From the IMG/VR virus record IMGVR_UViG_3300005607_000407: a stretch of DNA of 35,625 nt. The stretch is one strand, 5' to 3'. The notes under the pieces are model-generated. The model saw nothing but the letters and a program-made list of their open reading frames with translations, was not told the DNA's origin and searched no databases. Of the stretch, positions 6,191 to 20,181 are shown in pieces. How positions within the stretch are numbered: position 1 is the first letter of the stretch; each line of letters starts with the position of its first letter. The position numbers were made by a program, and so were the translations under genes. The stretch comes from a virus.

Positions 6191-8221
6191 ATGTCAAAAC
6201 AGGAGGCCACTATCGCTGGATGGAAAGACGAATGCGAATACTGGATTGACAACTTTATCGAAGGTGGCCGTCTTGTGTATTTTGAGCAGATGACACAGCT
6301 ACAAACCCTGCAACATCCCGTTTTCAAGGTCAAGCACTATCATCTATCGCCACAGCTGACCACTCTTCTACTGAATGAAGCGGCCACTTTCTTTGAAGCG
6401 ATGAAAGCGGCCATCATCGGCCACTTTGAAACAAAAGGAGAGGTCGAGTTTGTCAATCTTCTGAAGCGCCAGCTAGAGATAGAAGTCTATGAGCTGCCGC
6501 CAGTCAAGCGCCTTGACCGCACAATGCTTGACAAGTTCGTAGCGCTAGGCCCCTGCCAGGTCCACGCTATCGAGTCTCTTCAGCATATCAAGACCAGGCT
6601 AGTTTATCGCTGCTGGCATTGTGGCGAGCTGTCAAGGACAAAATCAAAGTGCGAGCATTGCGAGGAAAAAGACCTTGAAGAAGAAGTGGCCGCCGACAAC
6701 CTGCAAGACCAGCGCTACATCGAGGTCATAGTTTTAGATCAGAATGGAATGGCCACCGACAAATCACTGAAATACTGGCTGGATATTAGGGGCCAGAAGG
6801 CGTTCGAAACGCCGGATTTTGGCGAGACATGGATAGTGTCAGGATTTGTCAGATTATCAAAGAATGAAGATAAGCAGCCAGTCGGCTCTGTGCAGACATT
6901 CTTTCTCTATCTCGAAATTAACAGCATCCAGAAGGTGGCCACGGCCACCAAGGAGAAAGTGGCCGTTACGCCCGAGCTGGTGGCCGTCCGCAAAAAATGG
7001 GTGGCCGACTTGCAGAGGCAGGGAAAAGACGTAGAAGCCGAGCTGGTGTCAAAGCTGGCTCCCTCTATCGTGGGAGAAGACTTGTTGAAACTATCACTAC
7101 TCAGGCAGGCAGTAAGTGGCGCTGTCGAAAACGTGGGAGAGCGGACAGATATCCACATCCTTGTGCTGCGCAACCCTGGCCGAGCTAAAACGGATCTGGC
7201 TATGTACATGTCAGGCCTCACAAGTGGTGGCTATGTCGATTCAGCTGGAGCCTCTGCAGTGGGGTTGGTGGTGGGGCTAGAACCAGACGAGCGAACAAAA
7301 AAGAAAGTGGCCAAAGCTGGGGCCGCCGTATTGTTCAACGGCCACCCAATCTATCTTGATGAGGTGGACAAAATCAAGCGTGAATACCTATCGCAACTCA
7401 ATACACCTCTCGATAAGGGATTCTACCAGGAGACCAAGATATTGAACAAAAGATTTGAAACGGCCAGCCCGTGGGCGGTATTTGGTAATTTCAAGGCTAA
7501 AAAATATGATTCGAAACAGAGTTTAGCCTGGAACATCAATCTGCCGGAGGATTTTCTTGACAGGATAGATCTGTACCATATAGATCCAAGCTCAGCATAT
7601 AATGAAGAGCTGGAAAATGCCATAATGGATGCACAGAGCGACCGCTTTGAAAAAGGGACGGAAAAAATAGTTATCGATCCAGAGCTGAGAGAGCATATCG
7701 CTTGCGCTCGCTCCATCAAGGAAATCAAGTTCGAGTCAGGAGTGAGGGAAGTTTTCAAGTCATTTCAGAAAGATATGAAAAAGCTGGAGCAGGCGTTGGA
7801 TTCCGGCATCAAATTTTCAAACAGGCAATTCAACGGCTTGTGGCGTCAAGCTATCGCTCGTGCAGTATTGCATCTGAGAGATACAGTAACAAAGGATGAT
7901 GCAGAGCAGGCTATCAAGCATGTCACTACAATCATCGCAAAAGTTGGCATAGATCCGAGGACTGGTGAAATTGATTTAGGCGTGCTGACAGGGACGCAGA
8001 AAAGCAAGATGGAGCTACTAAAGGCGTTCAAGCAAATCTTTCTCTTTCTCTGTGCAGGCGACAGATTTGCAGACATTTCACGAGAAAAACTGATAGACCA
8101 GCTGCAAAAGCAGGGTTGGATAAAAAATGTCTACGAAGCTTCAGAGCTGATAGATGATGCAAAAAAACAAAGGATGATAATGGAAACCAGCAAGGATAAT
8201 TTCCGATGGATTAAAGGCTGA
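6191..8221 (+). CDS. mcm: MCM replicative helicase
   Basis: Zn finger CWHC..CEHC, LAPSIVG, Walker A variant RNPGRAKT, Walker B IYLDEVDK, Arg finger FLDRID, sensor-2 SNRQ..LWR, C-terminal winged helix. Confidence 0.96.
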   Translation: MSKQEATIAGWKDECEYWIDNFIEGGRLVYFEQMTQLQTLQHPVFKVKHYHLSPQLTTLLLNEAATFFEAMKAAIIGHFETKGEVEFVNLLKRQLEIEVYELPPVKRLDRTMLDKFVALGPCQVHAIESLQHIKTRLVYRCWHCGELSRTKSKCEHCEEKDLEEEVAADNLQDQRYIEVIVLDQNGMATDKSLKYWLDIRGQKAFETPDFGETWIVSGFVRLSKNEDKQPVGSVQTFFLYLEINSIQKVATATKEKVAVTPELVAVRKKWVADLQRQGKDVEAELVSKLAPSIVGEDLLKLSLLRQAVSGAVENVGERTDIHILVLRNPGRAKTDLAMYMSGLTSGGYVDSAGASAVGLVVGLEPDERTKKKVAKAGAAVLFNGHPIYLDEVDKIKREYLSQLNTPLDKGFYQETKILNKRFETASPWAVFGNFKAKKYDSKQSLAWNINLPEDFLDRIDLYHIDPSSAYNEELENAIMDAQSDRFEKGTEKIVIDPELREHIACARSIKEIKFESGVREVFKSFQKDMKKLEQALDSGIKFSNRQFNGLWRQAIARAVLHLRDTVTKDDAEQAIKHVTTIIAKVGIDPRTGEIDLGVLTGTQKSKMELLKAFKQIFLFLCAGDRFADISREKLIDQLQKQGWIKNVYEASELIDDAKKQRMIMETSKDNFRWIKG

Positions 8222-9192: not shown

Positions 9193-9222
9193 TAAATATA
9201 ACACTATACATAATGTATAGTG
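9193..9222 (+). promoter_or_regulatory. TATA-like box (TAAATA) plus perfect 21-bp palindrome CACTATACAT-A-ATGTATAGTG (operator O1)
   Basis: 10-bp arms at 9202-9222, 8 nt before the ATG at 9231. A near-identical copy lies at 10151. Confidence 0.8.
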
Positions 9223-9653: not shown

Positions 9654-9875
9654 GTGGCCGAGCATGAATATCACCACGAGGGAGACGGATCGGCCACTAT
9701 CTCCATCAAGGCTCTATCTTTCATCACAGCTCCAAACGGCCAGCGGTCTGTCATCCTTGATATTAATGGCGAAACTATTGTTATGCACGAATGGAGCAAG
9801 AAGGCAAAAACTATAACTGTGGACGCTCAGGTGAAAGCTTCCGGATACATCGAAGTGCTTCCAAGATATGCCTGA
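9654..9875 (+). CDS. Hypothetical beta-rich protein
   Basis: 73-aa ORF with GTG start, in operon context. Confidence 0.65.
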   Translation: MAEHEYHHEGDGSATISIKALSFITAPNGQRSVILDINGETIVMHEWSKKAKTITVDAQVKASGYIEVLPRYA

Positions 9876-10149
9876 GACGAAAAAAGAAAAACAAAAGCAG
9901 AAACAAACCCCAAGCTACCGCTCAATAGCAATAATGACCGTAGTGAAAAAGTGGCCGACTGGCGGATGCTATGCCAGGGTGCCGAAAGATTGGATCGGCC
10001 ACCGAGCGGCCTTCTACCTACCTGATAAAGTGGCCGTTGAAATCGTTCACGGCCTGGGCAAAGACAAGAGCCACGCCTATGTGGCCAGGATCCCCTGCGA
10101 GCTGGCAGGCAAAGAAATCAAAATCGAACTAAAAGATACAATTAAATAG
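9868..10149 (+). CDS. DUF2080/AbrB-like swapped-hairpin DNA-binding protein, internally duplicated
   Basis: VVKKWPTGGCYARVPKDWIGHRAAFY and IVHGLGKDKSHAYVARIPCELAGKEIKIE are two copies of the V...G....VPK.WIG..V pattern. Confidence 0.6.
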   Translation: MPETKKEKQKQKQTPSYRSIAIMTVVKKWPTGGCYARVPKDWIGHRAAFYLPDKVAVEIVHGLGKDKSHAYVARIPCELAGKEIKIELKDTIK

Positions 10150-10171
10150 CCACTATACGTAACGTATAGTG
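10143..10171 (+). promoter_or_regulatory. TATA-like box (TAAATA) plus perfect 21-bp palindrome CACTATACGT-A-ACGTATAGTG (operator O2) upstream of the tRNA
   Basis: Arms at 10151-10171. Differs from O1 by one compensatory base pair. Confidence 0.8.
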
Positions 10172-10195
10172 TCGGGTGCAAGCCCGACAAAAAGC

Positions 10196-10279
10196 GCCGG
10201 CGTCGCCTAATGGTATGGCGAGCGCCCCCTAAGCGCTTGGGTGTTCAACCCCTTAAGGGTTCGAATCCCTTCGCCGGCG
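10196..10279 (+). tRNA. Type II (long variable arm) tRNA with a Ser-like body and anticodon CCT (Arg)
   Basis: Acceptor GCCGGCG/CGCCGGC with G73, D-arm GCC-TAATGGTAT-GGC, anticodon stem AGCGC/GCGCT with loop CCCCTAA, V-arm GGGT/ACCC, T-arm AAGGG-TTCGAAT-CCCTT. CCA not encoded. Confidence 0.92.
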
Positions 10280-10285
10280 CTTAAA

Positions 10286-10366: not shown

Positions 10367-11332
10367 ATGGCAGAGGCTTATGTTTCTGGAGCTAATTCAC
10401 GACAACCTAATGACATTGAGGCTGAAATCTTTTACCATCTTCAAGAAGCTGGCAACATAGCAAGTCGTGAGCTTGAGTCTGACATCAATCTGAACAACAT
10501 CCAGACAAAAAGCTATCACATCCGTAAGGCGGCCGAAGCTGCAGAGCAGGCAGGGTGGCCGAAAAAAGAAATATCTAAACGACTACTTGAACTGATATTC
10601 AAACACGATTATAACATCAGTCGTAGTCTTGTTTATCGTATTTGCTCACCACTAGGTTATTCCGAATCCGATTCTGAACTAGATCAGTCAAGTCCAATGA
10701 TTGGACAAGAAAATAGTTCTATATATACTGCTTTTGAACAGGAAAACGAGCAACTGATAACACAGATAGAAAAAGAGATCGACATCAAGAAAGCGATCAT
10801 TTCGAAGCTCAGAACATCTGCATTTCTTACAAAGATACCCCGTGAAGAGCGCAAAGAATTACTGTACTGCTACGCAGTTCATAACAAAAATATTGGCATG
10901 GAGTGGGATGGCCGAAAAGACGTTTCTGAAAGACAGTATTTCATTCTATACGAAGCATCAACAGCTGCAATAAATGACAAGGTCACAGAGCTGTACATCA
11001 AGATGGTCAAGGATTGGAAGCCGCTGACAGGCAAGCAATATCACAAACTGAAAGTCGGAATAACAAGAATGATCCACCCGCTTTTTGAGCCGAAGAACCA
11101 ACAGGAGGCGATCGACAGGGGCTTCTACGGAATACAATGCCGGTGTGGCTCCTGGCGTGTCCTGATTGAAAAAGAACCTACGAAGGAATTCAAAGTGCAG
11201 TGTTGCAAATGCCAGCTTATCTTCGAACCGAAGACAGAAACGTTTAGCGCGAAGAACTCTATCATACTGGACGAAAAGATAAACACAGTTCTGACAAACT
11301 ACGATGATTTCAAGAAGAACAACGGCTATTAA
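10367..11332 (+). CDS. Hypothetical protein with possible N-terminal HTH and C-terminal Zn ribbon (candidate late activator)
   Basis: CRCGS...CCKC near the C-terminus. Located between the early and packaging modules. Confidence 0.7.
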   Translation: MAEAYVSGANSRQPNDIEAEIFYHLQEAGNIASRELESDINLNNIQTKSYHIRKAAEAAEQAGWPKKEISKRLLELIFKHDYNISRSLVYRICSPLGYSESDSELDQSSPMIGQENSSIYTAFEQENEQLITQIEKEIDIKKAIISKLRTSAFLTKIPREERKELLYCYAVHNKNIGMEWDGRKDVSERQYFILYEASTAAINDKVTELYIKMVKDWKPLTGKQYHKLKVGITRMIHPLFEPKNQQEAIDRGFYGIQCRCGSWRVLIEKEPTKEFKVQCCKCQLIFEPKTETFSAKNSIILDEKINTVLTNYDDFKKNNGY

Positions 11333-18990: not shown

Positions 18991-20181
18991 ATGTCGCAAA
19001 CAGCAGCATCAGCATCAACATTCCAGTATGAAGAAGAAAAAAGCGGCCCGCTCTTTGATAGGGCCGAGCAGAAACAGGTAGAACGTGGCAACACAATTCT
19101 GTGGCACAACCCTGTGACAGATATGATCTACCGTGGCACTGGGTATATGTCGTATGGCCCAGAGCCAACATGGGAAGAACCTGTCTTTGATGTCAAGGTA
19201 GCACGTCAACAGATTGGGTTGTACAAGGCAGGCAAGATAAAGCGGGAAGACATGGAAAACCCGTGGCAGGGACGATGGCTGCGGGTTGCGCAGGAGTTTG
19301 GCGCTATCAGAAAAAGAGCTATAAGGGAAGGCAAGCTCAGACTAGCAGCTACAGGAACAAACAGCGATTTTTCTACCATCAATATAGTCAACGTCTTTAC
19401 CAAGGTGCTGGGCCTTGAGTTCCCTATGAGGGTGCTGATTGAATCGGTGCTGAGTGTGGACACCCCCTCGACTTTGCTGTCAGTTGATGTAGGAACCCCC
19501 TATCAGGGCCATGCACAGGCAACAGAAACGTACTTTGCGGAACCGGAAAGGCAGAAATATGTGAGAAGCACATTCAACCTGCCAAAAGACATCGCAATAT
19601 TTGGGCTGACAGACGAGGCACAGTTGAAAGCATCGCACAACCTGTTCCAGCTGCATGTCGAGAATGCGCCAAGGGTGCTGCGCAAGTTGGAAAACAAGGT
19701 AATGGCTGCAATAATCGAAACAGCCACAGCGGTAGCAAAAGGCGATTGGTCTGCTGTATCGTCAGGGTTGTCGTCAAGGGATCCGTTCCCAGACTTTGAG
19801 GCCACCTTTGACACTATTAGCGGAAACGGCGGTGACCTGTCAGATTTCGCTATAGGGTCGCACAACAAAGTCTTCACGAATTTTAGCGGCAACACATTCG
19901 TGCGTGGAGCTTACAATAGAAGACTAGAGGATGTCAGCGGAACCGGTAGGGTGACCATGATTGACCGGCTGATTGGCGGCACATGGTATATCGACAACGA
20001 CCTGACCAACACAAAATGCACAGTCTGGACAAGGGATGCATTTGTAAGGGCAAACGGGCCGACCTTCGTAGCACAGTGGAGAGACGAAAACAGGATGACA
20101 GAGCTTTACAGAGCGGCTCACTTCTGTCAGACAAAACTACTGCAGTCTGGCAGGGCAGTGTGCATGACAGGGGTCGACTGA
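18991..20181 (+). CDS. Major capsid protein (HK97 fold)
   Basis: 396 aa, position after protease and cement genes, DWS..DPF.DF segment, GGAGGT SD-like site upstream. Confidence 0.85.
   Translation: MSQTAASASTFQYEEEKSGPLFDRAEQKQVERGNTILWHNPVTDMIYRGTGYMSYGPEPTWEEPVFDVKVARQQIGLYKAGKIKREDMENPWQGRWLRVAQEFGAIRKRAIREGKLRLAATGTNSDFSTINIVNVFTKVLGLEFPMRVLIESVLSVDTPSTLLSVDVGTPYQGHAQATETYFAEPERQKYVRSTFNLPKDIAIFGLTDEAQLKASHNLFQLHVENAPRVLRKLENKVMAAIIETATAVAKGDWSAVSSGLSSRDPFPDFEATFDTISGNGGDLSDFAIGSHNKVFTNFSGNTFVRGAYNRRLEDVSGTGRVTMIDRLIGGTWYIDNDLTNTKCTVWTRDAFVRANGPTFVAQWRDENRMTELYRAAHFCQTKLLQSGRAVCMTGVD

What the first reader, a model, noticed from the sequence alone, without database searches (positions are those of the whole stretch)
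10196..10279. Chimeric tRNA: serine-type body carrying an arginine (CCU) anticodon and C33
Seen: GCCG acceptor start, G73, a long variable arm and U20 (no A20), with anticodon loop CCCCUAA. This loop is two changes from the Ser(GCU) loop CUGCUAA (U33C, G34C) and keeps U36-A37-A38. Established: SerRS reads the long variable arm and ignores the anticodon, ArgRS typically uses A20 and C35, and U33 is near-invariant for the U-turn. Inference: the RNA would probably be serylated. It could then (a) mis-insert Ser at AGG as a host-sabotage or phenotypic-diversification device, (b) be a ribosome-excluded Ser donor or a decoy for anticodon nucleases, or (c) be a degenerating gene. All stems remain perfect, which argues against decay. 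Genome-wide AGG=Ser recoding is excluded because the MCM arginine finger (7562) and sensor-2 Arg (7823) are both AGG.
Basis: partly seen in the sequence, partly recalled or inferred. Interest (0 to 1): 0.86.

Follow-up and report, generated by a model that had tools for sequence, protein, structure and literature searches.

The report
Virus tRNA: serine body, arginine anticodon
A tailed virus of soil ammonia-oxidising archaea carries a well-kept tRNA gene that looks like a serine tRNA everywhere except its anticodon, and related viruses hold the same gene with arginine, phenylalanine or histidine anticodons, so it probably puts serine in at the wrong codons.

Summary
Window 10196-10279(+) is a real tRNA gene (ARAGORN; Rfam 52.9 bits). 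It has a long variable arm, G73, U20 and the anticodon loop CCCCUAA (C33, anticodon CCU). The same sequence occurs letter for letter in seven other contigs from separate samples, so it is not an assembly error.

With the loop masked, the body matches host-class tRNA-Ser best, well above tRNA-Leu and tRNA-Arg. AGG still means Arg in the virus and is not avoided.

Three new results:
- The gene is a cassette (gated promoter, leader hairpin, tRNA, trailer) at the junction of the early and late gene modules of MCM-encoding tailed viruses of Nitrososphaerales.
- Four lineages carry it with the Ser-type body kept. Seven of 21 stem pairs show compensatory changes and none is broken. The anticodons are CCU, CCU, GAA and GUG, and each loop is canonical for its anticodon.
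- C33 is not an oddity here. Cellular tRNA-Arg(UCU) genes of the same archaeal class carry CCUCUAA.

Best reading (about 0.45): these are tRNAs charged with serine that decode non-serine codons, a virus-borne relative of natural mistranslating tRNAs. Rivals are charging by the anticodon's own synthetase, or a role outside decoding. Decay and an attachment-site role are rejected. No charging or expression data could be obtained.

The parts
10196..10279 (+). tRNA gene with a long variable arm, a Ser-type body and anticodon CCU
   Evidence: ARAGORN; Rfam 52.9 bits; cloverleaf parsed; best body match is tRNA-Ser
10226..10232 (+). anticodon loop CCCCUAA (C32 C33 C34 C35 U36 A37 A38)
   Evidence: sequence; identical in L274; compared with host loops
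10238..10254 (+). 17-nt variable region forming a 4-bp hairpin
   Evidence: the sequence differs but the hairpin is kept in all four family members
10142..10171 (+). TATA-like box (10142-10148) followed by a 21-bp palindrome (10151-10171), a likely operator-gated archaeal promoter of the tRNA
   Evidence: sequence; a second near-copy at 9202-9222 (0 expected by chance); conserved in L006, L024 and L274. Promoter function is inferred.
10171..10188 (+). GC-rich hairpin between the promoter and the tRNA 5' end (presumed leader)
   Evidence: sequence; stem conserved in L006, L274 and L283
10280..10307 (+). conserved pyrimidine-rich trailer, a likely archaeal terminator
   Evidence: its first ~18 nt are conserved in all four lineages
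7562..7564 (+). AGG codon at an invariant Arg of MCM (control showing AGG = Arg)
7823..7825 (+). AGG codon at an invariant Arg of MCM (control showing AGG = Arg)

Best explanation
The gene belongs to a small family of virus-borne tRNAs that keep every known recognition feature of tRNA-Ser: a long variable arm, G73, G30:C40, G1:C72 and a Ser-like D arm with U20. Their anticodon loop, however, is that of another amino acid: CCU (Arg) here and in L274, GAA (Phe) in L006, GUG (His) in L283. Seryl-tRNA synthetase ignores the anticodon, while each tRNA lacks the non-anticodon determinants of the synthetase its anticodon would call for. The RNA is therefore most likely charged with serine and read on the ribosome at AGG (UUY and CAY in the relatives), in competition with host tRNAs. 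That would give low-level Arg-to-Ser missense insertion. The gene has its own operator-gated promoter at the boundary between early and late genes, so the effect would be timed. Shown: the anatomy, the Ser-type body, conservation, anticodon switching between lineages, and AGG = Arg in the virus. Inferred: serylation, decoding, and the purpose (host take-over, stress induction or an addiction-type RNA toxin).
For: Real and reproducible gene. With the loop masked, all four tRNAs score best against tRNA-Ser in the tRNAs recovered from two genomes of the host class: Ser 33-40, Leu at most 26.5, Arg at most 29.5. G73, G30:C40 and G1:C72 are invariant in the four, and these are the Ser determinants listed for archaeal and bacterial-type SerRS in PMC9976931. 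All ten host-class tRNA-Arg genes parsed have A20, while the viral tRNA has U20. Host tRNA-Phe has G20 and A73, while the L006 tRNA has U20 and G73. The L283 tRNA has U at -1 and G73, so it lacks the G-1 mark of tRNA-His. Selection: 7 of 21 stem pairs are compensatory and none is disrupted. Window and L274 tRNAs are 95-100% identical outside the variable arm, against 68-75% in the flanks, and their anticodon arms are identical. Each loop is canonical for its anticodon (CUGAAGA equals the host tRNA-Phe loop; CCCCUAA is one change from host Arg loops), which argues that the anticodons are used. Precedents: anticodon variants of tRNA-Ser stay serylated and mistranslate (PMC9976931); natural mistranslating tRNAs often lack U33 (PMC11415595); serylated allo-tRNAs have many anticodons, including those for AGA/AGG (PMC5389517).
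Against: There are no charging, expression or proteome data. AGG is the commonest Arg codon of the virus (133 codons, 29% of Arg) and is no rarer than in the sister virus or in proxy hosts. Phe codons are likewise not avoided in L006. Efficient mis-insertion would therefore damage the virus's own proteins. Arg identity rules have not been measured in archaea (PMC9976931 Table 1), so ArgRS might accept the tRNA through C35 and U36. The benefit to the virus is unknown. Only four lineages are known, and three of them come from short contigs.
Confidence: 0.45

Rival explanations
1. Cognate charging. Despite the Ser-like body, the anticodon dominates recognition, and the tRNAs are charged with Arg (Phe, His). 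They would then be ordinary supplementary tRNAs, or replacements resistant to host tRNA-cutting defences.
For: The loops are canonical for their anticodons, including the C33 seen in cellular tRNA-Arg(UCU) of the host class. AGG is the virus's most used Arg codon and is not avoided. G73 is also the discriminator of host tRNA-Arg. Phage tRNAs with altered anticodon loops that evade anticodon nucleases are known (PMC10264068, listed; I read only its title and abstract).
Against: A20 is missing although all ten host-class tRNA-Arg genes parsed have it. A73 and G20 are missing for Phe, and G-1 is missing for His. SerRS would still be expected to charge a G73 long-arm tRNA. This reading does not explain why a Ser-type body is kept under three unrelated anticodons.
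Confidence: 0.2
2. A role outside decoding: a tRNA-shaped RNA used as a decoy or sponge for host tRNA-targeting nucleases or modification enzymes, as a seryl donor outside the ribosome, or as a processing or regulatory element at the early/late boundary.
For: It is a single regulated tRNA cassette at a module junction. A body/anticodon mismatch would be harmless if the RNA never decodes. Some allo-tRNAs are thought not to be used in translation (PMC5389517).
Against: All tertiary-fold nucleotides and a standard 7/5 cloverleaf are kept. The three loops are each canonical for decoding rather than drifting. The anticodon arm is frozen between the window and L274 while the flanks differ by 25-32%.
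Confidence: 0.2
3. A degenerating tRNA-Ser pseudogene or an assembly error.
For: The anticodon does not fit the body.
Against: The sequence is identical in seven other contigs from separate samples. The odd loop is conserved in L274. There are 7 compensatory stem pairs and no broken ones. The promoter and trailer are conserved.
Confidence: 0.03
4. The tRNA is the viral attachment site (attP) for integration into a host tRNA-Ser gene.
For: Its 3' 30 nt are 93% identical to tRNA-Ser(CGA) genes of the host class. A related element, L274, is integrated in a host chromosome.
Against: In L274 the chimeric tRNA is intact inside the element, and the junction lies beside a host tRNA-Leu(UAA) gene about 160 nt further on. 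No integrase family was found in the window ORFs scanned. No copy of the tRNA-Leu end occurs in the window.
Confidence: 0.02

Closest known systems
allo-tRNAs of Acidobacteria and other bacteria (PMC5389517)
   Same: They have a long variable arm and Ser identity, and they carry many non-Ser anticodons, including ones for AGA/AGG and once for Phe. They come from soil metagenomes, some lie near regulatory or toxin-antitoxin genes, and they insert Ser in E. coli reporters.
   Different: allo-tRNAs have 8/4 or 9/3 acceptor/T branches derived from tRNA-Sec-like folds and are bacterial. The present tRNAs have a standard 7/5 cloverleaf, resemble archaeal tRNA-Ser, and sit in a fixed cassette of archaeal tailed viruses.
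Candida tRNA-Ser(CAG) and other yeast CUG decoders (PMC11415595)
   Same: A tRNA-Ser body with the anticodon of another amino acid and a non-U33 (G33) in the loop. SerRS ignores the anticodon.
   Different: In Candida the codon is reassigned genome-wide. Here AGG stays Arg. In addition, the C33 here also occurs in cellular tRNA-Arg(UCU) of the host class, so it may not act as an attenuator.
Streptomyces tRNA-ProX family (PMC11415595)
   Same: Dedicated natural mistranslating tRNAs whose body and anticodon disagree. They form a family with several anticodons and have a non-U33 (A33).
   Different: They have a Pro body, are bacterial and chromosomal, and are paired with a dedicated synthetase. 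No synthetase-like gene was found in the window ORFs scanned.
Phage tRNAs that counter tRNA-cutting defences (PMC10264068, PMC11464382, PMC11555353; titles and abstracts only)
   Same: Virus-encoded tRNAs with unusual anticodon loops.
   Different: Those keep a body matched to the anticodon, so they are charged correctly.

Membership tests
tRNA (Rfam RF00005) | Covariance-model score above the gathering cut-off, with a full cloverleaf | tested here: met
   52.9 bits against 29. Relatives score 53.7, 50.7 and 60.0 bits.
tRNA-Ser (archaeal, long-arm type) | Long variable arm forming a hairpin | tested here: met
   A 15-18 nt variable region with a 4-7 bp stem in all four members.
tRNA-Ser (archaeal, long-arm type) | Discriminator G73 (Leu has A73) | tested here: met
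   G73 in all four members. Host tRNA-Leu genes have A73.
tRNA-Ser (archaeal, long-arm type) | G30:C40 and G1:C72 (identity elements reported for M. barkeri SerRSs, PMC9976931) | tested here: met
   Invariant in all four members. Rule quoted.
tRNA-Ser (archaeal, long-arm type) | Body most similar to tRNA-Ser of the host class | tested here: met
   Loop-masked global alignment against the tRNAs recovered from two genomes: Ser comes first for all four.
tRNA-Ser (archaeal, long-arm type) | A serine anticodon (NGA or GCU) | tested here: not met
   CCU, CCU, GAA and GUG.
tRNA-Ser (archaeal, long-arm type) | Charged by SerRS | not testable with these tools
   Needs an aminoacylation assay.
tRNA-Arg | C35 and U36 | tested here: met
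   Loop CCCCUAA.
tRNA-Arg | A20 in the D loop | tested here: not met
   The viral tRNA has U20. All ten host-class tRNA-Arg genes parsed have A20. The rule itself has not been measured in archaea.
tRNA-Arg | Short (4-5 nt) variable loop | tested here: not met
   17-nt variable arm.
allo-tRNA | 8/4 or 9/3 acceptor/T-stem configuration | tested here: not met
   7/5 in all four members.
allo-tRNA | Ser-type long arm with non-Ser anticodons | tested here: met
natural mistranslating tRNAs | Body identity and anticodon disagree, and the gene is under selection | tested here: met
natural mistranslating tRNAs | Measured mis-incorporation | not testable with these tools
   Needs a proteome or a reporter.
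attP / integration-site tRNA fragment | Element junction falls inside the tRNA sequence | tested here: not met
   In L274 the junction lies beside a host tRNA-Leu gene and the chimeric tRNA is intact inside the element.

The most novel reading that the evidence does not exclude
A repressor-gated cassette in archaeal viruses encodes seryl-tRNAs whose anticodon has been switched between lineages (Arg, Phe, His). This would be a programmable, virus-delivered mistranslation device, acting as an RNA toxin or host-takeover tool that rewrites a chosen sense codon to serine for a set period of infection or lysogeny.
Probability: 0.3. Interest if true: 0.9.

Novelty: new variant of a known kind. Interest (0 to 1): 0.72.

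Why it matters
Dedicated mistranslating tRNAs are known from a few yeasts, from Streptomyces and from soil bacteria. Searches of the held paper library found none reported from a virus or from archaea. These were keyword searches, not a proof of absence.

Here the same Ser-type scaffold carries three different anticodons in related viruses, under visible selection and behind a gated promoter. That turns an old question, whether mistranslation is ever used on purpose, into a compact and testable system: four natural variants, one scaffold and a known host clade.

The work also shows that C33 occurs in cellular tRNA-Arg(UCU) genes of Nitrososphaeria. This bears on how universal U33 really is.

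Tried and rejected
- **Host genome:** none is held for the window.
- **INPHARED phages:** no match to the region.
- **Pattern scans of IMG/VR:** these found only the L006 contig plus unrelated tRNA arrays of large phages.
- **More distant relatives:** MCM relatives L014-L017, five provirus-bearing genomes of the host class, and L287 lack the tRNA.
- **Host-family genomes:** the cassette was not found in the 237 genomes of the G183 family that were searched.
- **Anticodon arm origin:** I looked for a host tRNA-Arg(CCU) with an identical arm. None turned up in 200 genomes; only tRNA-Thr(CGU) arms came within two mismatches.
- **AGG as serine:** I tested whether AGG marks serine positions in viral genes. 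It aligns to R (0.49) and K, as AGA and CGN do, with no Ser signal.
- **Codon avoidance:** AGG is not avoided in late genes.
- **Gene downstream of the tRNA (10367-11332):** no Pfam, PHROG, PDB or Atlas lead.
- **Unpublished genomes:** G131, G230, G282, G326 and G364 were among those searched. No claim here rests on them.

Full report
**1. The observation**

ARAGORN finds one tRNA in the window, at 10196-10280(+), with anticodon cct. Rfam RF00005 matches 10196-10279 at 52.9 bits against a cut-off of 29. Parsing the sequence gives:
- a 7-bp acceptor stem, then U8 and C9;
- a D arm with three pairs plus a U13/U22 non-pair, and a loop with G18 G19 U20 A21;
- G26 and a 5-bp anticodon stem;
- the loop CCCCUAA at 10226-10232 (C33 = 10227);
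- a 17-nt variable region that folds into a hairpin;
- a 5-bp T stem with a standard T loop, and G73.

The one exception is that the D stem is not perfect.

The AGG codons at 7562 and 7823 lie in invariant Arg columns of an alignment of eight MCM proteins.

The same 84 nt occur letter for letter in contigs L266-L269 and L271-L273. These were assembled from separate JGI, ENA and Logan samples. The odd loop is therefore not an assembly slip. Raw reads could not be consulted.

**2. Setting**

The window is a tailed archaeal virus or provirus. It encodes MCM, a large terminase and a tape measure, and a tail tube protein. Nearly all genes lie on the + strand.

The host is a soil member of the Nitrososphaerales, on three grounds:
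- The only MCM relative in species-representative genomes is in a Nitrososphaeria MAG.
- Terminases 40-49% identical sit in genomes of that class.
- The relative L274 is joined to chromosomal DNA that is syntenic with several of those genomes.

No integrase family was found in the ORFs I scanned.

**3. What the body is**

BLAST of the tRNA against 400 genomes of the class gave tRNA-Ser(CGA) genes as its best full-length matches. It also gave a 30-nt, 93% match to the 3' end of intron-bearing tRNA-Ser(CGA) genes.

I then took the tRNAs recovered from two genomes of the class (G001 and G183). With the anticodon loop masked, I aligned the viral tRNA against all 73 distinct tRNAs parsed from these. 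tRNA-Ser came first at 33.0, ahead of Arg at 25.5 and with Leu lower still.

Host tRNA-Ser genes share U8-C9, the same D-stem letters, U20 or C20 followed by A21, and G73. Host tRNA-Leu genes have A73 and longer D loops.

The review PMC9976931 lists G73 and G30:C40, with G1:C72 for the methanogen enzyme, plus the long arm as serine determinants. It states that the anticodon plays no part. The viral tRNA has all of these determinants.

All ten tRNA-Arg genes parsed from the class have A20 after G18-G19. The viral tRNA has U20.

**4. Relatives: a family with three anticodons**

The gene sits in a conserved cassette with four parts:
- a TATA-like box;
- a 21-bp palindrome, with a second near-copy at 9202;
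- a GC hairpin;
- the tRNA, followed by a pyrimidine-rich trailer.

Four lineages carry the cassette at the same place, after homologues of gene 9868-10149.

| Lineage | Relatedness | Anticodon loop |
|---|---|---|
| Window | reference | CCCCUAA (CCU) |
| L274 | upstream protein 66% identical; region 79% identical | CCCCUAA; whole anticodon arm identical; different variable-arm hairpin, two extra D-loop bases, one T-loop change |
| L006 (also L024, L284-L286) | MCM 86% identical | CUGAAGA (GAA), which equals the host tRNA-Phe loop |
| L283 | upstream protein 42% identical; downstream protein 44% identical to that of L006 | CUGUGGA (GUG); U at -1; G73 |

With the loop masked, all four score best against tRNA-Ser.

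Across the four, 7 of 21 stem pairs change on both sides and none is broken. G1:C72, G30:C40 and G73 never vary. Every variable region folds into a hairpin of different sequence.

Outside the variable arm, the window and L274 tRNAs are 95-100% identical, against 68-75% in the flanking coding and trailer DNA. Between the window and L006 the anticodon arm is the most diverged stem-loop, at 47%.

So the structure is under purifying selection, the anticodon is held fixed within a lineage, and it has been switched between lineages.

More distant relatives lack the cassette. In L014 the same intergenic site is a clean gap.

**5. C33**

The host-class tRNA-Arg(CCU) genes that were found have CUCCUAA. 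But cellular tRNA-Arg(UCU) genes have CCUCUAA, with C33, in G001 and in 7 of the 19 genomes that matched the pattern among 150 of the order searched. One tRNA-Gly(CCC) has CCCCCAA.

The viral loop is thus one change from a cellular Arg loop of the same archaeal class. C33 is less exotic here than general knowledge suggests, and it fits a working AGG-reading loop. The review PMC11415595 notes that natural mistranslating tRNAs often carry G33 or A33. That parallel remains, but it is no longer needed to explain C33.

**6. Codon evidence**

AGG is the commonest Arg codon of the virus: 133 codons, 29% of Arg. The share is 28% in L006 and 28-38% in three proxy hosts of similar G+C content.

In alignments with homologues, AGG columns hold R (0.49) and K (0.13), as AGA and CGN columns do, with no Ser signal.

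So the code is standard and the virus does not spare itself. This argues against efficient, wholesale mis-insertion. It fits either low-level, timed mistranslation or charging by the cognate synthetase.

**7. Weighing the readings**

The three anticodon contexts each lack the non-anticodon marks of their cognate synthetase:
- A20 for Arg;
- A73 and G20 for Phe;
- G-1 for His.

All of them keep the full serine set. That a Ser-type scaffold is retained through three anticodon changes is the strongest argument that serylation is the selected property. The canonical loops argue that the anticodons are read.

I therefore put Ser-charged missense decoding first, at 0.45. Charging by the cognate synthetase (0.2) and a non-decoding role (0.2) remain open, because nothing here measures charging.

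Decay is contradicted by conservation and covariation. The attachment-site idea is contradicted by L274, where the element ends beside a host tRNA-Leu(UAA) gene and the chimeric tRNA lies intact inside it.

**8. Comparison with what is known**

- **allo-tRNAs (PMC5389517)** are the nearest in logic: a long arm, serylated, many anticodons. They have 8/4 or 9/3 folds and are bacterial, and the 7/5 fold here fails that defining feature.
- **Candida tRNA-Ser(CAG)** shares the Ser body with a foreign anticodon, but it goes with reassignment of the codon, which is excluded here.
- **tRNA-ProX** shares the multi-anticodon family pattern on a different body.

I found no report of such a tRNA in a virus or in archaea in the held library. 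I therefore rate it a new variant of a known kind.

Noticed in passing
L030 (G001) tRNA-Arg(UCU); L043 (G001) tRNA-Gly(CCC); seven genomes of the order: Cellular elongator tRNA genes of Nitrososphaeria carry C33. tRNA-Arg(UCU) has the loop CCUCUAA in G001 and in 7 of the 19 matching genomes (150 searched), and one tRNA-Gly(CCC) has CCCCCAA. U33 is usually taken as near-invariant, so either editing or a lineage-specific tolerance may be at work.
   Followed up: partly
window 10280-35625 versus L006 14286-21418: The window and its closest relative share the early (replication) module, with proteins 36-88% identical. Their late (structural) modules are not detectably homologous, and the whole L006 record has no match to the window terminase. 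The exchange point is right after the tRNA trailer.
   Followed up: partly
L274 930-1107: Homology to the window ends about five codons into the gene that follows the tRNA. About 55 nt further on lies an intact, intron-bearing host tRNA-Leu(UAA) gene on the other strand, followed by chromosomal genes syntenic with G183, G237 and G256. This is a provirus or remnant junction and gives a host assignment.
   Followed up: partly
L014 11950-11965 versus L006 14150-14320: A more distant relative has the same flanking genes but lacks the whole palindrome-hairpin-tRNA-trailer cassette. The boundary is clean and starts at the first bases of the palindrome, so the cassette behaves as one insertion or deletion unit.
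   Followed up: no
window 9202-9222 and 10151-10171: Two near-identical 21-bp palindromes overlap TATA-like boxes, one before the four-gene operon and one before the tRNA. They are conserved in L006 and L274 and also occur in unrelated-looking contigs L019-L023. They look like operators of one regulator. The suggested AbrB-like regulator could not be confirmed with Pfam.
   Followed up: partly
L167, L168, L178 and about 16 more IMG/VR loci: A recurrent tRNA-like element of about 115-125 nt, with a tRNA-type acceptor and T arm but a long irregular interior, occurs in many viral contigs. ARAGORN in intron mode calls it Val(cac), which is probably spurious. It is unrelated to the present family.
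   Followed up: no
protein of window 9868-10149 (P0009): The protein collection records this exact protein on a 129,015-nt contig that was not delivered. It may be the window's own source. If so, the 35.6-kb window is part of a much longer record, possibly a host contig.
   Followed up: partly
L267 and L268 versus the window: Two independent contigs of the window virus both end at window coordinate 19609, inside the capsid-region gene 18991-20181. This hints at strain variation or a repeat that breaks assemblies there.
   Followed up: no
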